From assembly GCA_000004695.1 (NCBI GenBank), contig CM000154.2:96001-160000 (forward strand): a DNA stretch of 64,000 nt, written 5' to 3'. This stretch comes from Dictyostelium discoideum (lineage: Eukaryota). Position 1 is the stretch's first letter, and every line of letters begins with the position of its first letter. Shown here piece after piece: positions 41,312-50,939 of the stretch. The notes beneath the pieces were generated by a model. That model saw only the letters and a list, made by a program, of their open reading frames with translations, made no database searches and had not been told where the DNA came from. The translations under genes were made by a program, and so were the position numbers.

Positions 41312-44300
41312 ATGAGGAGCGAAGCACAAGTTCCTCCAGCACAAAAAGTTTATTATGAAGAACTTTTTCAAATTGCTGATGTGGACAAAGATGGAGTAAT
41401 TGGTTTAAACGATGCATCATTTTTTAGAAATTCAATGTTATCAAATGATATTTTAAGAGATGTAATTACTTTTTTTTAATTTATAATAATAAATAAGTAA
41501 ATAAAAAAAAATAAAAAAAACAAACCAATAGTTTTACTAAATTTTTTTTATTATTATTTTATTCATTAATAATTTTAGATTTGGCAATTATCAGATGTGA
41601 ATAATGGATATTTAAATATTGACGATTTTTTTGTAGCATTAAAATTAGTTTCATTGGCACAAATGGGAGCACCAGTTACTTTGGATAGTATTAAATTAAT
41701 ACCAGTTATTCCACCACCAAAATTAAATGATATTCCCCCATTAAAAAATGATGTAGGTTTTAATTCAAAAAAAAAAAAAAAAAAAAAAAAAAACCATTTA
41801 TAAACACTCATATTTCTAATAATAACATAATAATAATAATAATAATAATAATTAATAAAAGTGGATAATAAGTAATGGTGAAAAACAAAATTATATAGAT
41901 TTATTTAATAAATATGATGAGGATGGTGATGGATTTATTTTAGGATCACAAGCTAAAACTATATTTGGTACAAGTGGATTGCCAACAAAAATGTTGAGCC
42001 ATATTTGGAATTTATCAGATGTTAGTAAGGATCAAAAATTGGATTGTCAAGAGTTTATAATGGCAACATTTCTCATTAGATCAGTATTAAAAGGTTATGA
42101 ACTACCAAATAAATTACCAGAATCATTGATTACATCTTCACATTATATTAGTTCGGCTGGTGTACCATCACCAAAGATTCCAGAATGGTTAATACCACCA
42201 CCCGAGAGAATAATATATGAAGATTTATTCAATAAGAACCAACAGGGAGGTATATTCACAGGTTCTCAAGCAAAAGTTCTCTTTGAGAAATCTGGTCTCT
42301 CCAATCAAGATTTGAAATTGATTTGGGATTTAGCTGACCACAATCAAGAACAAGTTTTAGATAAACATAAATTTGTAATTGCAATGTTTTTAATCTCTCA
42401 AAGAAAAAAAGGTAAAGAATTACCTCAATCACTTCCTCAACTATTATTAGAATCTTCAAAGAGTACATTCAATCCTTCTTCAATAACTTCACCACCACCA
42501 CAATCTTCACCACAATCTTCTCAACTACAACAACAACCACCACAACAGCAACAACAAACTGGTGATTCAAAATATAATATAAATTTAAATGATTTAGTTT
42601 CAAATACCACACCAATTGGCCAACCAAATATACAACCAACTACTACTACTACTACAACACCTGCAACTGCTTCAGGTGGCTTGAATGTTAGTGGTTTACT
42701 TTCACCACCACCTCAACAGCAATCACCTTCAATTGTAGGTACACCACCTTCTACTATAACAAGAGAAGGATCATTTACATTTGATAATAGTGGTGGTGGT
42801 AATAATTTATTAGCAAAACCACCAAGAAGTAATAGTATTACACGTATGAATTCATTCCAACATCAATTACCACAACAACAACAACAACAAGTTTCACCAC
42901 AATCGACCATTTCAAATACTAGTATTGGTAGTGGTAGTAGTAGTTTCTTATCAACTAATGCTACAACATCATCACCACCACCAATACCATCAACATCTTC
43001 ACAACCAACTTCATCAAATAATAGTTCTATAACTAGTAATAATAACAATCCAATTAGTCCAACATCCACCAATATTACTCAATTATTTGAAAACATTGAA
43101 AAAGTTAAACAACAAGTATTTGAACAAGAGAGAATTAGACAAGAGGAAATTCAAGTTAAATTGAACCAAGAATTACAATTGGAAGCAGAGTTAAAACAAC
43201 AACTCGCACAAGAACAACAACAATTAGATGAGGTTAGGGAAAATGTAAAAGAAGAGGAAATCAAACTATCCTCTATTAAAGCTGATAATCAATCATTGAA
43301 AGAACAAATTTCAACCGCTAGAGTCGATATTAAATCATTAAAATCACAGTTGGAACAACAATCATCACTACTCAGAGAAAAGAGTGAATTGTTTGACGAA
43401 CAAAATGAAGCACTCTCACACTTGAATGATGATCTTAAAGAAAAACAACAAGAGTTACAAAAGAATAAACAACAAATCGAACAATTATTGTCATCAATTG
43501 AATCGATTAAACAAAATCGTACCGATGTAAAGAATCAAATTTCAACTGTAACCAAACAATTGAATGACTCTAAATTAGAATTAAAACAATTAGCTGAGGA
43601 ACAAAAACAACAAAAACAAAAATTAGCAGAAGAACAAAAACAATTACAACAATTACAACAACAACAACAACAACAAGCAACTTCAAAATCTTTAACCTCT
43701 GTTAAATCTGATGATAATATAACTTTCCTTAGTGGTATTAATACAAATACCACCTCTACAAACACAGCAACTTCAATTCCAACTGCAAGTGTAAGTGGAA
43801 ATGATAATTGGGACTTTTTTAATTCACCACCAGTTAAATCATCATCATCCTTACCAACTTCACCATTTGATGATGATAAAACTTTTGTACCAACATTTAC
43901 AACTACCACCACCACAACTAATAATAATAATAATAATAACACTATAAATACTAGTAATGGTAATTTAACATTTACATCACCAGTTAAATCAACTGTTAAT
44001 CAATTGAAATCATCAAATTCATCAGTTGGTGGAACAGGTGGTAGTGTTTCAACTAGAAAATTAAGTGGTGCAAGTGTCAGTAGTAACAATAGTTTCAATG
44101 ATAATACTAGTATAGATACATTAAATAATCATTTTGGTTCCGATCAATTTTCATTCAACTCATTTGGAAGTAATAATTTAACAGCACCACCAACAACCTC
44201 ATCTTCAACAAATAAAGTTCAATCAGATTTCTTTGGTGTCGGTGGAGGAAATAAAGATCCATTTGGTGGTGATTCAAATAATAATCCATTTGGTGAGGAA

Positions 44301-44604
44301 AGTACATCATCAATTAGGGATGGTGGTTCTGAAACTTTATCAGAAGCTCATACTCTCTTTGATAAAGATCCACTTTTTGAAACAAATGATGCATTTCAAT
44401 CCAGTAAAGATCCATTTGGTCAAATTTTATTCTCAAACTTTACAAAAGATTCATTTGGTGGTGAAAGTGTATCAAACAATAGTAATAATAGTAGTATAAT
44501 TTCTTCAAATACAATACCTTCATCAAATTTTACTTTTAATACAAATTCAACAACAACCAATAATCGCCAATCACCAATTGATTCTGATTTATTTAGTGAC
44601 AATC

Positions 44605-44672
<68 letters not shown>

Positions 44673-45128
44673 CCAACTCAGTCAAATCAAAATAATCAAA
44701 GTTTTACAAGTAATGATTCTTTTGATGATTTCCAAACTACACCAACACCAACCAATAACAACAACAACACTACAACAACAGAGTTTGGTGTAAAGTTTAG
44801 TGATACAACTTTTGGTGATAGTTCAAATGGTGATTTTGATTTTGGAAGTAATGTATTTGGTCAACCAAGTGCAAATGATCCATTTTCATCATCAATTGAA
44901 CCTCAACATCAACCTGATACAAACAATGTATCCTCTGATCCATTTAAAGGTGGTTTTGATGATTTTGGAAGTGCACCATTCTCTTTTGATAATAAATTCA
45001 ATGAAGTAGTTGGCGATGATTCACCATCATTAACAACAGCAACAACAACAACAACAAATGATAATGATAATGGCACTTTTGTTTTTAATGACAATAATAA
45101 TAATACACCTTCACCATTTGATTCTTAA
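41312..45128 (+). CDS. Eps15-like endocytic adaptor with three EH domains, a coiled coil and DPF/NPF-rich tail. Exons are 41312-41461, 41579-41752 and ~41861-45128
   Basis: EH domain 1 spans exons 1-2 (KVYYEELFQIADVDKDGVIGLNDASFF... / IWQLSDVNNGYLNIDDFFVALKLVSLAQ). The donor is GTAATT and the acceptor ttttag. A GTAGGT donor after ...PLKND and an aaaag acceptor lead into WIISNGEKQNYIDLFNKYDEDGDGFILGSQAKTIFGTSGLPTKMLSHIWNLSDV... (EH domains 2-3, in frame with track ORF 41979). The rest is a long coiled coil (EQQQLDEVRENVKEEEIKLSSIKADNQSLKEQ...), many DPF/NPFG motifs and a (CAA)n poly-Q run. Confidence 0.8.
44607..44672 (+). repeat. (CAA)n microsatellite encoding poly-Q inside the Eps15-like CDS
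   Basis: About 22 caa units give QQQQ... Confidence 0.9.
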
Positions 45129-45256
45129 GAATTATATTAAAAAAAAAAAAACATCAATTATTATTGTATTTTAAAAGTAAAAATAAATAAAAAAAATAAA
45201 AATAAAAATATTAAAAATAAAAGGAAAACTTAAAATAAATTTATTTAAATCTTTCT

Positions 45257-47280
45257 TTAAAGACCAATATAATATGATCTACCACCAACATTTTGAATTG
45301 GAGTAATTGTTGGTGATAATAAACACCATTCATACCAAACTTTACTCTTTGAAACATTTCTCCAAAATGCACATTTAGCTTTTATATTATTATTATTATT
45401 ATTATTTAAATTTCCATTTGAGAAATAAACTGGTTGTTTTAATGGGAAATAAATTGGAAACCAACTAAACATACCAGTTGAAAAATTACTTGGATTAATA
45501 CTTATATGAACATCTTTATATAGACAACAATCGAAATAACCAATGAAACCATGACAAGTGGTTGATGGAATTGTTAATTCAAATTCTAATGATTCATATC
45601 TAGAGTTATCAATGATTTCATCTCTATTTGGATGTGAGAATGTAAATAATGGTTTTGATTCTGCTAATTGATGGAAATTATGAGGTTTAACAACGTATGG
45701 TGTTTCTGAATGTTTTAAATCACCATAGGCAGTAACTTCATTAAAAAGTTTTGATGAACTAATTGGTGCAATATAAGAGGTATACCAAGTTGGAATACTA
45801 ATACCTGTATCTTTTTTTAAATATCTTTGTGCTCCATCTAAACATTCTGGACTTAATTCATTATCACCAAATGATCCTAATAATTCACTAACCATAATAT
45901 CTGCTCTATATTCTGTATTCCAATCTCTCATATCACTATCAATAACTGTAACAATTTCTTCCCATCCTTCCATTATAATTCTATTTCTTAATCTATTTAT
46001 TTAAAAAGAAATAATGATTAGATAATTTAATTTTTTTTTTTTTTTTTTTTTTTTTTTCAGTTTTTATTTAATATAGTAAATACTTACGTAACGATAGCGT
46101 TTGGATTTTTTTCAACAGCAAAAACTTTAACAAATTTATTAGCTTCAATTGAAGCTTGAATTGAAGAATTTACTAAAGGACCTCTACCAGCACCAACTAC
46201 CATAATAATGATTGGATCATCTTTTGAATCTTTTTTATCCAAATCCAATAAAGCCAATCTAACAGCATTTTGATATTGTTTATATTTGATTGGATCTTTT
46301 TCAAAGACTTCATAAGTTTGTGATTCTAAATTATCCATTAATGGTTGAAGTGGTGCTTGAAGGAAATCTAAATATGGCATTTCAAAGTATTCCTCTTGAG
46401 TTAATGGATTTTGATTTGTATGTAAAAATTTCAAATAGGTTTTGTAGTCTTTTAAAGTATCCATAGATGCACCACTAACAACAAATTGAATATTATAGTT
46501 GAATAGCTGTAAAAGAAATTGTTGATGTGCTTTTGATAATGTTGGAAAACCCGCTTTATTAGTTAAGAAAACTGATGTTGGTATAATTACACATTTCACT
46601 GGTTCACCTAACCATTGTTGTAATTGTTCTTTTGATGGTAAATCTGATGTCATCTCTAAAACTGCTGATAAATTTGGATGTTGATTACAAAGTAATCTAA
46701 AATTGTTCCACCATTCCCATGGATTATCATTATCAACTAAATTATTACCACTACCACCACTAGTATTATGATCTTGATAATAATCAAATTTATTCAATAA
46801 TTGTGATTTTGGTGAAACTAATGGTATTCTAATCCAAACTTTCATATAGGAAAGTGATTGGAGTGATTGATTTACAACTTGTGCATAATTTGTACTATTG
46901 AATGATGGTGTTGGTAAGAGAATTGATGGTAATGATAAATGTGCTGCCCATGATATCTCTTGTTTTAATGTTTTAACACTATTACTACGAATTGTTGGAT
47001 CAATTGAATCTAAATCTATACCATTGGTACTGGTTTTACCAACGATTGATGATCTCCAATAATTTGATTGTAATAATGTATCTGATCTTGTAAATGCTAC
47101 TTTGTTACTAAAACTATTACCAATTGATGCTTTGGTAAAATCACGATTAAATCTTGGATGTGAAATTGAGGTCATTATAAATTGATATTCCAAATCATAT
47201 GCACGCTCGATATCAAGTTGAATATCAACCGATTCTAATTCAACCCCACATGAAAATTCATATTGTGCACTATTTATCAT
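45257..47280 (-). CDS. prmt5: Protein arginine N-methyltransferase 5 (PRMT5); 2 exons 46088-47280 and 45257-45992
   Basis: The N-terminal TIM-barrel region (...[18 protein letters not shown]...[21 protein letters not shown]...) and the Rossmann region ([42 protein letters not shown]) are collinear with human PRMT5. A GTAAGT donor (phase 2) and an aaataaatag acceptor join to [86 protein letters not shown] (compare human [46 protein letters not shown]). The product is about 642 aa. Confidence 0.9.
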
Positions 47281-47312
47281 TTTTATCTAAAAAATTTAAA
47301 AATAAATAATTG

Positions 47313-47351
<39 letters not shown>

Positions 47352-47365
47352 ATGGGGCGAGCGAG

Positions 47366-47400
<35 letters not shown>

Positions 47401-47458
47401 GTCGTTTTGGAAAATGGTTGTTTAGGAGAAAGAAAAAAAAAAAAAGTGATTATTGGGT

Positions 47459-47484
47459 CATTACCATAAATATTTATGGTAATG
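47459..47484. promoter_or_regulatory. Perfect 26-bp palindrome CATTACCATAAATATTTATGGTAATG in the prmt5 upstream region
   Basis: It is self-complementary over all 26 nt and lies about 180-200 bp 5' of the prmt5 ATG (47280, minus strand), flanked by poly(A) tracts. It is a candidate dimeric transcription-factor site or hairpin. Confidence 0.4.
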
Positions 47485-47680
47485 GCACCCAGTCCAACTT
47501 TATTTGGTTTACAAATTTTTTTTTCTTTGTCATTTATTTTATTCTTTTAAAAAATTAAGTTAAATAAAAAATAATAAAAAAAAAAAAATAAAAAAAAGTT
47601 GAGGTAGTTTTACTGTTTAATAAATCCTTTTTTTTTTTTTTTTTTTTTTGAGTTACATATATATATTCTTTTTTTTTTTT

Positions 47681-48010
47681 TTAACAAGAGACTGAATGAT
47701 ATGGTAAAAGTGAAAAGATTGCACGTGGAGCAAAGTTTTGAGCTAATCTTGAAAAAATGGCAAATGCAAAGGCAGCAACAATTGCACCACCAAACATAGG
47801 CATACTTGATGATGTCATTGATGAACTTCCACTAGCTAAAAACAAAAATAAAAAAAATTATTGAATATTTTATTTTATTTCATTTTATTTAATTTAATTT
47901 TATTTAATTTTATTTTATTTAATTTTATTTTATTAATAAAACTTACCATATGTGAATGTTAAAAGACTAAGTAAAACTAATAAAGTGGCAAAGATGAAAT
48001 TTGATTGCAT
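47681..48010 (-). CDS. Small (72-aa) signal-peptide / hydrophobic-tail protein; 2 exons 47947-48010 and 47681-47835; not in the ORF track
   Basis: ATG(48010) MQSNFIFATLLVLLSLLTFTY is followed by a GTAAGT donor (phase 1). An ...ttttag acceptor leads into ASGSSSMTSSSMPMFGGAIVAAFAFAIFSRLAQNFAPRAIFSLLPYHSVSC*. The splice is in phase, the donor is canonical, and the signal peptide has an AxA-like cleavage site (TYA/SG). Confidence 0.5.
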
Positions 48011-48606
48011 TGTAATTGTTATAGTGTTTGATAAAATTTAAAAATAAAAATTTAAACTGTTTTTTTATAAAATTTAAAAAATGAAAAAAAAAAAAAAAAA
48101 AAAAAAAAATTTAAAAAATTTAATCCAGTCGTTTCAAGAAAAAATGGAGAAAGATAGATGATGTGGATTATTGTCCTTTAAAAAATATTTTCTTTGAATT
48201 GTCGAATAATTTTAAATAAAAATTTGTCATCAAAAAAAATAAAAAAAAAATAAAAAAAACAAAATAATTATTATCAATTATTTAAAAATATAATATTAAA
48301 ATATAACATTTTTTTTTTTTTTTTTTTTCAATCAAAATTATGATTTTCCGTTAACCAATCAATTTCATTCGAAATTTAATTATTTGGACAAATTGATTAA
48401 GTTGGCAATTACTTTAAATGTTTCAATATTTAATTTGGACTTTACTAAAATAAAAAAAAGATTCCACTTTCAAAAAAAAATTAAAAATTAAAAATTAAAA
48501 ATTAAAAATTAAAATAAAATATATATAATTAAAACAATACCCCTTTTAAATTATTTTTTCAAACAAAACCCACACACTAATTACAACAATAGATTCATCG
48601 AAAAAG

Positions 48607-48645
<39 letters not shown>

Positions 48646-48714
48646 AAATTTTTTTTTTATTTGAAGTCTCATTTTAATTTTTCAAATTATTTTTTTTTAT
48701 TTTTTTATTAAAAA

Positions 48715-50939
48715 ATGACAATAGTTAGATCAATAGCAAATTCACAAATAATTTCAACACTAAGTAATCATAGTAATAAATTAGTATTAAATACATTTTT
48801 ACCACTATGCTATGGTTATAAAAAAAATTATTATTACCAAAATGCTAAAAAGTACTATTCAACCACCAATACAAATACACAATTTGTGAATGAAGAGGTA
48901 CCTGTTATTTATCTATTTATTTAATAATAATTTTATTATTATTTATTAACTTTTTATTTTATTTTATTTTATTTCATCTTATAAAGTTTAATAAAGCTAG
49001 AAAAATGATTGCAAAAGATTTACATAAGAAAACATTAGCATCAATGGAGAAAGCATATGGTATAATGACAGAATATGATAGAACTACATATAATAAATCA
49101 CCATTAGCATCATCATTAGGATCATTTAAAGATAGTATTGATCAATTAAAGGATAACTCATTTTTATTGGTAGTTGTTGGAGAATTCAATAGTGGTAAAT
49201 CATCATTTTTAAATGCATTATTAGGTGATAGATATTTGAAAGAAGGTATAACACCAACAACTCATAGAATCAATAGAATTGAATTTGGTGAAACGATATC
49301 ACAACATACGATTCCATCAAGATTAAGCAATACAGAACATGAAATCATTCAATTACCAGTGGAATGGTTAAAAGAGTTTTCATTAGTAGATACACCAGGT
49401 ACAAACGCAGTGATTGAAGGTCATCAAGAGATCACTGAACATTTCATACCAAAGAGTGATTTAGTATTATTTGTAACTTCAATCGATCGTGCATTCAGTG
49501 AAAGTGAAAAAATATTCTTAGAAAAAGTTAAAAAATGGGGTAAAAAGATCGTAGTAATCATTTCAAAGACTGATCTCATTGAAAATAATCCACTCTCTTC
49601 GAATGCACAATCTGAATTAAATGAAGTCATTAATTTTGTAAAAGATAATTTTAAATCACAATTAAATGTTGAACCAATGATTTTCCCATTAAGTTCAAAA
49701 TTAGCATTAAAAGCAAAATTAGAATTATCTTCATCAATTAATAATTTAAATAATAATTTAAATAATAATAATAATTCATCAAATATAAATTATAATAATT
49801 TACTATCATCAACATCAGTTGAACCAAATAATATCAATAATAATAATAAATATACACAAAAGTTTTATCAAGAATTAGAAAATAATATTAATTGGAAAAA
49901 GAGTAAATTTTTAGATTTAGAGAAATATATTTTACAATCATTGGATAGTAATGAACGTGTGAAATTAAAATTATTAAATCCATTGGGTGTTGCAGATAAA
50001 TTGTATTCAGAATTTGATGAAGAATATCGTTCTCAACAAAGTGTTTTAGATTTTGATTTTGAAAATATTAATTTAGCCGTGGCACAAATTAATGAACATC
50101 AAATCGATTTGAATAAGGATTTACGTCACCAATTGGAAAGAATTGATACTATACTCTTGAGAATGGAGAATAGAGCCAATACATTTTTAGATAATGAAAT
50201 TCAGTTTAGTAATCTTTTGAAATTGTTAAGAGGTGAAGAAATTAGAAACCAATTTGAAAAACACGTTATCGATGGCACCAATCAAGAGATTGAACAATTG
50301 GTTAGAAATTTAGTTGATAACATTGTCGATAAGAATACGAAAAGATGGAAATCGATCATTGATTTAATCAATCAGAAATCATCAAATAAATCTCAAAAAG
50401 TGGTTGGTTTCATTAGAGACACTCATGACTCTAGTGATTTCTCTTCGAATAGACAACAAACTATAAATGATATGGGTGAAAGAACCACTAAAACTTTATC
50501 ATCCTATGATAGAGATAACGAATCTTTATTGGTTAGTCGAGATATTAAAAATGCAATCTATCAAGCGATTCTATTCGAAGCTGGTACCGTTGGTGTTGCA
50601 ACCATCCTTTCAACAGCATTCTTTGATTTAACTGGTGTTTTAGGTATTGGTGCTTTAGCCATCACTGGTTTAGCTTGGGTACCATTTAAAAAAGCTCAAT
50701 TAAAACGTTCCATCTCTTCAAAGATTACAAATCTTCGTCTTCAATTACATGATACCATTCAAGATCATATTGGTGAAGAAATTAGGATTAGTTCAAATAA
50801 AATTCAATTAGGTATTCAACCTTATATCGATTTTACAAATAATGAAAGTAAAAAAATTAATGATTTATCAATTAAATTAGGTGAATGTAAAGATGAAAGA
50901 CAAACTTTAATTTATGATATTGAAAAATATTTTAAATAA
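48715..50939 (+). CDS. Dynamin-superfamily (Dynamin_N / BDLP-mitofusin-like) large GTPase with a C-terminal TM hairpin; possible 5' presequence exon 48715-48897
   Basis: The G1 motif is VVGEFNSGKSSFLNALLG, G2 is ITPTTH, G3 is LVDTPGT and G4 is ISKTD. Coiled-coil regions follow. A hydrophobic hairpin AILFEAGTVGVATILSTAFFDLTGVLGIGALAITGLAWVPF sits near the C-terminus. The upstream ORF MTIVRSIANSQIISTLSNHSNKLV...KKYYSTT looks like a mitochondrial presequence. The proposed splice uses a non-canonical GTACCT donor and a ttataaag acceptor (phase 0), so it is low confidence. Confidence 0.65.

What the first reader, a model, noticed from the sequence alone, without database searches (positions are those of the whole stretch)
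47681..48010. Unannotated two-exon gene for a 72-aa secreted/membrane micro-protein
A minus-strand ATG at 48010 opens a 21-codon signal-peptide exon ending in a canonical GTAAGT. The acceptor 112 nt downstream continues in phase for 51 codons (ASGSSSMTSSSMPMFGGAIVAAFAFAIFSRLAQNFAPRAIFSLLPYHSVSC*). Neither exon reaches the 60-aa ORF-track threshold. The Ser-rich stalk plus hydrophobic tail resembles small GPI-anchored or single-pass surface peptides.
Basis: seen in the sequence. Interest (0 to 1): 0.5.

Follow-up and report, generated by a model that had tools for sequence, protein, structure and literature searches.

The report
Annotated Dictyostelium membrane micro-protein gene
The two-exon gene for a 72-residue signal-peptide-plus-membrane-helix protein is real and conserved across social amoebae, but it is already annotated (Dictyostelium discoideum DDB_G0287329), so the finding is a correct reading of a known gene whose function is still unknown.

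Summary
"Unannotated" is wrong: this exact sequence is DDB_G0287329 (XP_637241.1, UniProt Q54KI2, "putative uncharacterized transmembrane protein") of Dictyostelium discoideum AX4. The gene is real. Seven dictyostelid orthologues share an invariant C-terminus, FSLLPYHSVSC. dN/dS against D. firmibasis is 0.11. A phase-1 intron sits just after the signal peptide in all six genomes examined. The most likely product is a type I single-span membrane micro-protein of about 50 aa once the signal peptide is cleaved. It has a variable Ser-rich stub, a Gly/Ala-rich helix and a conserved cytosolic tail containing a YxxΦ-like motif. GPI anchoring is unlikely, because the part a GPI signal would discard is the most conserved part. 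A UniRef "KCP2" label on the D. purpureum orthologue is not supported. The family matches nothing in Pfam, the PDB or metagenomes, and no literature mentions it. One lead: in five species the gene is head-to-head with the sole Fzo/BDLP-like dynamin GTPase (DDB_G0287331), while all other neighbours differ. Function is unknown. Novelty is low.

The parts
47947..48010 (-). Exon 1: ATG plus 21 codons plus the first base of codon 22. It encodes essentially the whole signal peptide (MQSNFIFATLLVLLSLLTFTY-A).
   Evidence: translation, upstream in-frame stop. (exact match to XP_637241.1); an exon 1 of 61-67 nt, phase 1, in six genomes.
47836..47946 (-). Intron: 111 nt, GTAAGT...TTTTAG, phase 1, 5.4% GC.
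   Evidence: same position and phase in D. firmibasis (62 nt), D. purpureum (91), H. album (93) and T. lacteum (72). A. subglobosum (65). Intron identity to D. firmibasis is 52%, against 89% for the exons.
47681..47835 (-). Exon 2: the last two bases of codon 22, 50 codons and TAA. It encodes the mature protein SGSSS...SVSC.
47750..47797 (-). Coding region for the Gly/Ala-rich hydrophobic helix (M35-S50, MFGGAIVAAFAFAIFS), the putative single transmembrane span.
   Evidence: best 15-residue window has an approximate insertion energy of -0.9 kcal/mol, and K/R occur only C-terminal to it in all orthologues. AlphaFold helix 35-64.
47684..47716 (-). Coding region for the invariant C-terminal 11-mer FSLLPYHSVSC (F62-C72), which includes the YxxPhi-like YHSV and the terminal Cys.
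   Evidence: these columns are identical in all 7 orthologues; dN/dS is 0.03 over TM plus tail.
48011..48714 (.). A 704-bp AT-rich divergent intergenic region shared with the neighbouring GTPase gene. It is a putative bidirectional promoter (inferred).
   Evidence: Equivalent spacers of about 350-500 bp in D. firmibasis, D. purpureum and H. album, and about 1.1 kb in A. subglobosum.
48715..50939 (+). Context rather than part of the gene: DDB_G0287331, a 711-aa Dynamin_N GTPase with a C-terminal TM hairpin (exons 48715-48897 and 48987-50939). It is the conserved head-to-head neighbour.
   Evidence: exact match XP_637242.1/Q54KI1; nearest solved relatives BDLP and IniA; the review calls it Fzo1/mitofusin-like, function unknown; the only conserved adjacency.

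Best explanation
This is the annotated gene DDB_G0287329 of Dictyostelium discoideum. It is a single-copy gene known only from Dictyostelia, and it encodes a type I single-span membrane micro-protein. Shown: exon 1 encodes a classical signal peptide, with a hydrophobic core of about 15-17 residues and Ala at -1 and a small or neutral residue at -3 in every orthologue. A phase-1 intron separates it from exon 2. The reading frame is under strong purifying selection. Inferred: the signal peptide directs the nascent chain to the ER and is cleaved after Ala22. That leaves a protein of about 50 residues with a short, fast-evolving Ser/Thr-rich luminal or extracellular stub of about 12 aa, which is possibly O-glycosylated. 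It also has one short helix rich in Gly, Ala and Ser (residues 35 to about 50), of the kind that packs against other membrane helices. The basic cytosolic tail of about 22 residues has an invariant end, APx[FA][IV]FSLLPYHSVSC, and the function probably resides there. The tail most likely acts as a docking or sorting peptide: it contains a YxxPhi-type motif (YHSV) of the kind read by clathrin-adaptor mu subunits, and a terminal Cys that could be acylated. On this reading the protein is a small accessory or adaptor subunit of a membrane complex in the secretory or endolysosomal system. Its partner and cellular role are unknown.
For: Exact identity to XP_637241.1/Q54KI2. Orthologues in D. firmibasis, D. 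purpureum, T. lacteum, H. album, A. subglobosum and one EukProt species. 16 synonymous against 7 non-synonymous changes versus D. firmibasis: dN/dS is 0.11 overall and 0.03 in both the signal peptide and TM-plus-tail, and five of the seven non-synonymous changes fall in the Ser-rich stub. The intron's phase and position are conserved in six genomes while its length and sequence vary freely. The stop codon follows the terminal Cys directly in every species. The 11 C-terminal residues are invariant. All K/R lie C-terminal to the second hydrophobic segment and all D/E lie N-terminal to it, consistent with the positive-inside rule. AlphaFold predicts helix 3-24, coil 25-34, helix 35-64 and a coiled C-terminus. 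Downstream neighbours differ between species, so it is a stand-alone gene and not a 5' exon of PRMT5.
Against: No transcript, peptide or localisation data could be retrieved. The second hydrophobic segment is short and only marginally hydrophobic: my unweighted sum of the Hessa scale gives -0.4 to -1.3 kcal/mol for the best 15-mers in the five orthologues with favourable values (+1.0 in H. album, +1.7 in A. subglobosum) and +1.4 to +5.6 for 19-mers across all seven. Membrane integration is therefore not certain. No signal-peptide, TM or GPI predictor was available, so cleavage and topology rest on rule-based reading. The AlphaFold model has only moderate confidence (pLDDT 66, pTM 0.33). The YxxPhi reading is a motif match only, and eleven invariant residues are more than a sorting signal needs.
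Confidence: 0.65

Rival explanations
1. The micro-protein is a dedicated partner or regulator of the neighbouring Fzo/BDLP-like dynamin GTPase DDB_G0287331. The two genes are kept head-to-head to be co-expressed from a bidirectional promoter, and the conserved helix and tail contact the GTPase's TM hairpin or stalk.
For: The divergent pair is present in D. discoideum, D. firmibasis, D. purpureum (group 4), H. album and A. subglobosum (group 2). A tblastx comparison of the 12-22 kb loci shows these two genes are the only ones consistently shared, while both outer flanks differ. Small-residue-rich TM helices are typical of helix-helix packing, which rests on general knowledge. The GTPase is detected at protein level.
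Against: The pair is broken in T. lacteum, where actin genes lie upstream. Unrelated genes also stay near each other here: the EH-domain gene stays near PRMT5 in D. purpureum and H. album. The micro-protein has an ER-type signal peptide with no basic residues, whereas the GTPase has a basic, acid-free N-terminal extension that looks like a mitochondrial presequence (my reading). The two may therefore sit in different compartments. No co-expression or interaction data exist.
Confidence: 0.12
2. It is a GPI-anchored mini-mucin. The signal peptide is removed, an omega site in the Ser-rich stretch is amidated to GPI, and everything from the hydrophobic stretch onward is discarded.
For: N-terminal signal peptide, small residues (S, G) upstream of a hydrophobic stretch, and a Ser-rich stalk.
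Against: The hydrophobic stretch is not C-terminal. It is followed by 22 residues with 2-3 basic residues. The region that would be cleaved off is the most conserved part of the protein (invariant 11-mer, dN/dS 0.03), and the would-be mature peptide of about 10 residues is the least conserved. GPI signals are degenerate in sequence, which is established knowledge. No GPI predictor could be run.
Confidence: 0.04
3. The N-terminal hydrophobic segment is an uncleaved signal anchor, which gives a two-helix hairpin membrane protein. Alternatively, the second segment fails to integrate and a peptide of about 50 aa is secreted.
For: The second segment is marginally hydrophobic. UniProt calls the protein only 'transmembrane'. 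AlphaFold shows two helices.
Against: Ala at -1 and a small or neutral residue at -3 are conserved in all orthologues, followed by a polar Ser/Gly stretch. The exon boundary coincides with the cleavage site, as in many signal-peptide exons. There is no basic n-region flank of the kind that would fix an N-in anchor. The charge distribution fits a cytosolic tail. A secreted peptide would not need the conserved hydrophobic helix.
Confidence: 0.12
4. It is a subunit of oligosaccharyltransferase (KCP2), as UniRef names the D. purpureum orthologue.
For: Only the database label on UniRef100_F1A3F5.
Against: The Pfam Keratin_assoc model scores human KCP2 at 6e-55 but hits none of the family members even at E<=10. 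Profile comparison with human KCP2 gives 0.3% probability over 6 columns. KCP2 is 136 aa with three TM helices and no signal peptide, whereas this family is 63-72 aa with a signal peptide and one helix.
Confidence: 0.01

Closest known systems
DDB_G0287329 (XP_637241.1, UniProt Q54KI2, 'Putative uncharacterized transmembrane protein'), Dictyostelium discoideum AX4
   Same: 100% identical over all 72 residues, with the same two exons. The window is this locus on chromosome 5, flanked by PRMT5 (prmt5) and DDB_G0287331.
   Different: Nothing; it is the same gene. The database entry carries no function, no family and no orthologue information.
Short type I adaptor or accessory membrane proteins with a signal peptide, a tiny ectodomain, one TM helix and a short motif-bearing tail (for example DAP10/DAP12, FXYD proteins, or LAMP-type C-terminal YxxPhi tails). 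This is a resemblance by architecture only.
   Same: The overall plan is the same: a cleavable signal peptide, an ectodomain of about 12 residues, one helix rich in small residues, and a tail of about 22 residues with a Tyr-based motif near the C-terminus.
   Different: There is no sequence similarity to any Pfam family or PDB chain. It has no charged TM residue as in DAP10/12, no FXYD motif, and no Gly before the Tyr as in LAMP tails. The comparison rests on my own knowledge of those families and was not tested here.
KCP2 / KRTCAP2 (Pfam PF09775), the label UniRef gives the D. purpureum orthologue
   Same: Both are small membrane proteins of the secretory pathway.
   Different: There is no detectable homology, and length and topology differ (136 aa and 3 TM, against about 70 aa with a signal peptide and 1 TM).
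GPI-anchored Ser-rich surface peptides
   Same: Signal peptide, Ser-rich stretch and a downstream hydrophobic segment.
   Different: The hydrophobic segment is internal and is followed by a basic, invariant 22-residue tail. The conservation pattern is the opposite of that of a GPI signal.

Membership tests
DDB_G0287329 orthologue group (Dictyostelia) | Sequence identity to the annotated D. discoideum protein | tested here: met
   Exact 72/72 match to XP_637241.1/Q54KI2.
DDB_G0287329 orthologue group (Dictyostelia) | Invariant C-terminus FSLLPYHSVSC directly followed by a stop codon | tested here: met
   Identical in all 7 sequences. The motif plus stop is absent from metagenome contigs.
DDB_G0287329 orthologue group (Dictyostelia) | Single phase-1 intron 61-67 nt after the ATG, at the signal-peptide boundary | tested here: met
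   (six genomes).
Type I single-span membrane protein with cleavable signal peptide | N-terminal signal peptide obeying the -3/-1 rule | tested here: met
   Rule-based only. The hydrophobic core has an approximate insertion energy of -2.8 to -3.6 kcal/mol over 15 residues, and Ala is at -1 with T/A/S/V at -3 in all orthologues. SignalP was not available.
Type I single-span membrane protein with cleavable signal peptide | One further hydrophobic helix long enough to span the bilayer | tested here: inconclusive
   The hydrophobic run is about 15-17 residues. The approximate energy is favourable for the best 15-mer in five of seven orthologues (unfavourable in H. album and A. subglobosum), and unfavourable for 19-mers in all seven. 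AlphaFold gives a continuous helix 35-64 at pLDDT of about 60-75.
Type I single-span membrane protein with cleavable signal peptide | Positive-inside charge distribution | tested here: met
   Within the mature protein, all K/R lie C-terminal of the helix and all D/E lie N-terminal, in the six full-length orthologues. The R13 listed for A. subglobosum lies in the mis-annotated intron read-through.
GPI-anchored protein | Hydrophobic domain at the extreme C-terminus, preceded by a short polar spacer and a small omega residue | tested here: not met
   The hydrophobic stretch ends 22 residues before the C-terminus, and the tail carries 2-3 K/R. This was judged by inspection; no GPI predictor was available.
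GPI-anchored protein | The C-terminal signal is removed, so it is sequence-degenerate between orthologues | tested here: not met
   The C-terminal 11 residues are invariant and dN/dS is 0.03.
OST subunit KCP2 (Pfam PF09775 Keratin_assoc) | Match to the family profile | tested here: not met
   No hit at E<=10 for any member, while human KCP2 scores 6e-55 as a positive control. hhalign probability is 0.3%.
OST subunit KCP2 (Pfam PF09775 Keratin_assoc) | About 130-aa protein with three TM helices and no signal peptide | tested here: not met
   The family is 63-72 aa, with a signal peptide and one helix.
Cargo with a YxxPhi adaptor-binding sorting signal | Tyr-x-x-bulky-hydrophobic in a cytosolic tail | tested here: met
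   YHSV at residues 67-70 is invariant. This is a motif match only.
Cargo with a YxxPhi adaptor-binding sorting signal | Binding to an AP mu subunit and Tyr-dependent trafficking | not testable with these tools
   Needs experiments.

The most novel reading that the evidence does not exclude
A membrane micro-protein known only from Dictyostelia has been kept head-to-head with the organism's only Fzo/BDLP-like fusion dynamin since taxon groups 2 and 4 diverged, because it is that GTPase's obligate small subunit or regulator. That would give the first functional handle on both uncharacterised genes, and on membrane fusion by a bacterial-type dynamin in an amoebozoan.
Probability: 0.12. Interest if true: 0.55.

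Novelty: already known. Interest (0 to 1): 0.2.

Why it matters
As a gene discovery it does not matter, because the model has been in the D. discoideum reference annotation since the genome paper-era records (EAL63732.1). It does show that the first-stage reader can reconstruct a correct spliced micro-gene from raw sequence. The work here adds several modest things. It defines a single-copy family known only from Dictyostelia, with an unusually rigid 11-residue C-terminus. It corrects two database errors: the KCP2 label on the D. purpureum orthologue and a truncated A. subglobosum model that lacks its signal-peptide exon. It also records a conserved head-to-head pairing with the only mitofusin/BDLP-like GTPase of Dictyostelium, which is a testable lead for two genes that have no known function.

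Tried and rejected
(1) Pfam scans of all family members returned only sub-threshold noise: LptF_LptG, RseC and similar, down to E=7e-4 (19 bits, cut-off 27.9) for the EukProt member and E>=0.18 for the rest. (2) A PDB sequence search with the family profile returned nothing at E<=10. (3) An exhaustive HMM search of 1.84 billion representative proteins, plus a word-indexed profile search of 5.8 billion, returned only dictyostelid orthologues. There was no D. discoideum paralogue and nothing outside Dictyostelia. (4) tblastn of the protein against the whole window and the PRMT5 loci of D. purpureum, P. violaceum and H. album found no second copy, and PRMT5 adjacency holds only in D. discoideum and D. 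firmibasis. (5) Two metagenome scans, one with a protein pattern and one with the invariant 11-mer plus stop as degenerate DNA, found nothing. (6) Literature: neither the gene IDs, the accessions nor the motif occur in any searchable main text. (7) Supplementary tables of six Dictyostelium transcriptome, proteome or comparative papers contain no entry for DDB_G0287329. Several files were truncated on storage, so this is weak negative evidence. (8) I did not run a fold search, because a 72-residue model of two helices at pLDDT 66 would give meaningless matches. (9) An Rfam scan and a tRNA scan of the whole window found nothing, so there is no competing RNA-gene explanation. (10) I rejected the idea that it is a 5' exon or uORF of PRMT5, because the stop codon is conserved and the downstream neighbours differ between species.

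Full report
WHAT THE WINDOW IS. The window is about 17-31% GC and encodes poly-Q/N-rich proteins with short, extremely AT-rich introns. Exact protein look-ups place it on chromosome 5 of Dictyostelium discoideum AX4. Around the finding the gene order is: an EH-domain protein (41979-45128, +); PRMT5 (45257-47280, -); the micro-gene (47681-48010, -); and a dynamin-family GTPase (48715-50939, +).

CHECK OF THE OBSERVATION. The ATG is at 48010. Exon 1 is 64 nt (21 codons plus one base). The donor is GTAAGT at 47946. The intron is 111 nt (47946-47836, 5.4% GC, against 27% and 37% in the exons) and ends in TTTTAG. Exon 2 is 155 nt and ends in TAA at 47681. The only slip is trivial: the intron is 111 nt, not 112. 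Reading through the intron meets eight stops, and an in-frame stop lies ten codons upstream of the ATG.

"UNANNOTATED" IS WRONG. An exact-sequence look-up finds the 72-aa product as EAL63732.1 / XP_637241.1 / UniProt Q54KI2, "hypothetical protein DDB_G0287329" or "Putative uncharacterized transmembrane protein DDB_G0287329".

IS IT A REAL GENE? Yes, on comparative evidence.
- A first search found a 71-aa, 90%-identical orthologue in D. firmibasis, in the same gene order: GTPase, micro-gene, a 729-aa gene in the PRMT5 position, EH protein. I did not check that 729-aa gene's identity directly.
- At the DNA level the exons are 89% identical. The intron is 52% identical and differs in length (111 against 62 nt), but it sits at the same phase-1 site.
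- Nei-Gojobori counting gives 16 synonymous and 7 non-synonymous differences. dN/dS is 0.11 overall and 0.03 in both the signal peptide and the helix-plus-tail. Five of the seven non-synonymous changes fall in the Ser-rich stub.
- An exhaustive HMM search of 1.84 billion representative proteins, and a profile search of the 5.8-billion collection, added D. purpureum (69 aa), Tieghemostelium lacteum (67 aa), Heterostelium album (67 aa), Acytostelium subglobosum (50 aa, partial) and one unnamed EukProt gene (68 aa). Nothing else turned up: no paralogue in D. discoideum and nothing outside Dictyostelia.
- In every genome where I could fetch the locus, the gene has one phase-1 intron 61-67 nt after the ATG, and its length is 62-111 nt.
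- The "partial" A. subglobosum model is an annotation error. An unannotated exon 1 (MSIKLFITVLLLLVGYTLAD; GTATGT donor; 65-nt intron) lies at L008 7897-7957 and restores the family architecture as a 63-aa protein.
- The stop codon follows the terminal Cys in all species and the downstream neighbours differ. It is therefore a stand-alone gene, not an upstream exon of PRMT5.

ANATOMY OF THE PROTEIN.
- Residues 1-22 are a textbook signal peptide: a short uncharged or weakly charged n-region and a hydrophobic core of 15-17 residues. Ala is at -1 and T/A/S/V at -3 in all orthologues. The exon 1/exon 2 boundary falls within two codons of the predicted cleavage site.
- Residues 23-34 are a Ser/Thr-rich stub that varies in length and sequence. 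N-glycosylation sequons occur in some species only.
- Residues 35 to about 50 form a short hydrophobic run rich in Gly, Ala and Ser. My approximate, unweighted sums of the Hessa scale are -0.4 to -1.3 kcal/mol for the best 15-residue windows in five orthologues, +1.0 in H. album and +1.7 in A. subglobosum. They are positive for 19-residue windows in all seven, so this is a marginal TM helix.
- Within the mature protein, all basic residues lie C-terminal to that run and all acidic residues N-terminal (six full-length orthologues). This fits an N-out/C-in orientation.
- The last 16 residues follow APx[FA][IV]FSLLPYHSVSC, and the final eleven are identical in all seven proteins.
- AlphaFold2 on the 7-sequence alignment gives helix 3-24, coil 25-34, one long helix 35-64 and a coiled C-terminus, at moderate confidence (pLDDT 66, pTM 0.33).

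MOST LIKELY MECHANISM. Shown: a conserved, selected, spliced ORF with a signal peptide, one hydrophobic helix and an invariant tail. Inferred:
- The protein enters the ER and is cleaved after Ala22.
- That yields a type I membrane micro-protein of about 50 residues, whose functional parts are the small-residue-rich helix and the cytosolic tail.
- The tail contains YHSV, which matches the YxxPhi class of adaptor-binding sorting signals. That class is established knowledge and was not tested here. The tail ends in a Cys that could be acylated.
- Eleven invariant residues are more than a sorting motif needs, so a specific protein partner is likely.
I therefore favour [quoted passage not shown]. 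Confidence is about 0.65 for the architecture and much lower for the role.

GPI ANCHOR. The hydrophobic run is followed by 22 residues that include 2-3 basic ones. The part a transamidase would remove is the most conserved, and the would-be mature peptide is the least conserved. No GPI predictor could be run, so this rests on the defining features of GPI signals.

COMPARISON WITH KNOWN FAMILIES. There is no significant Pfam match, no PDB sequence match and no Rfam or tRNA feature in the window. UniRef names the D. purpureum orthologue "OST subunit KCP2", and I tested that. The Pfam Keratin_assoc model scores human KCP2 (sequence confirmed against PDB 9n9j) at 6e-55 but hits no family member at E<=10. 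hhalign of the family profile against KCP2 gives 0.3% probability. The label is unsupported. Architecturally the protein resembles short type I adaptor or accessory proteins, but that is analogy only.

A LEAD FROM CONTEXT.
- The micro-gene is head-to-head, 704 bp apart, with DDB_G0287331. I reconstructed that gene's model (exons 48715-48897 and 48987-50939), and it matches XP_637242.1/Q54KI1 exactly.
- It has a Dynamin_N GTPase domain and a C-terminal pair of hydrophobic helices. Its nearest solved relatives are the bacterial dynamin-like proteins BDLP and IniA.
- A review lists it as the only Fzo1/mitofusin-like protein of D. discoideum, with function unknown (PMC8565484). A 2026 life-cycle proteome detects it (PMC12821622 supplements).
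- The same divergent pair occurs in D. firmibasis, D. purpureum, H. album and A. subglobosum.
- A tblastx comparison of the loci shows these two genes are the only ones consistently shared, while both outer flanks differ.
- The pair is broken in T. lacteum, and the two proteins carry different-looking targeting signals. I rate a direct functional partnership at about 0.12.

WHAT COULD NOT BE OBTAINED. I found no expression or peptide evidence. The gene ID, accessions and motif are absent from all searchable main texts. They are also absent from the stored, partly truncated, supplements of six relevant papers. Two metagenome scans found no further members.

VERDICT. The gene is genuine and conserved but already annotated, and its function is unknown. 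As a discovery it is of low interest. It carries a modest, testable lead: the invariant tail and the conserved pairing with the Fzo/BDLP-like GTPase.

Noticed in passing
window 48715-50939 (+), with the 48011-48714 spacer: The micro-gene is head-to-head with DDB_G0287331, the only Fzo/BDLP-like dynamin GTPase of D. discoideum (function unknown). The pair is conserved in five species of taxon groups 4 and 2 while all other neighbours differ, and it is broken in T. lacteum. The GTPase's exon 1 encodes a basic, acid-free 60-residue extension that looks like a mitochondrial presequence.
   Followed up: partly
L008 7897-7957 (Acytostelium subglobosum, DF837596.1): The annotated 'partial' 50-aa orthologue (XP_012750332.1) lacks its first exon, and its N-terminus LTHTNLTG is intron read-through. 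An unannotated 61-nt signal-peptide exon with a GTATGT donor and a 65-nt intron gives a complete 63-aa protein.
   Followed up: yes
D. purpureum orthologue P0123 (XP_003294198.1 / UniRef100_F1A3F5), locus L005 8001-8301: UniRef names it 'Dolichyl-diphosphooligosaccharide--protein glycosyltransferase subunit KCP2'. No Pfam or profile similarity to KCP2 supports this, so it looks like a propagated mis-annotation.
   Followed up: yes
window 47459-47484: A perfect 26-nt palindrome, CATTACCATAAATATTTATGGTAATG, sits in a locally GC-richer island of the spacer between the micro-gene stop and the PRMT5 start, about 180-205 bp upstream of the PRMT5 ATG. It is unique in the window and absent from the D. 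firmibasis spacer. An adjacent block (ATGACAAAGAAAAAA...ACCAAATAAA) looks conserved between the two species by eye.
   Followed up: partly
window 47310-47400 and 48080-48130, 48600-48650: Very long homopolymer A/T runs (30 nt or more) flank the micro-gene on both sides. These are typical Dictyostelium intergenic sequence, and they generate spurious poly-Lys ORFs (for example 47310-47558, +) and spurious inverted repeats.
   Followed up: no
L002 (D. purpureum) and L004 (H. album) compared with window 41979-47280: An EH-domain gene stays within a few kb of PRMT5 in D. discoideum, D. firmibasis, D. purpureum and H. album, even though the genes between them differ. This shows that some micro-synteny of apparently unrelated genes persists in Dictyostelia, so any conserved adjacency should be read with caution.
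   Followed up: no
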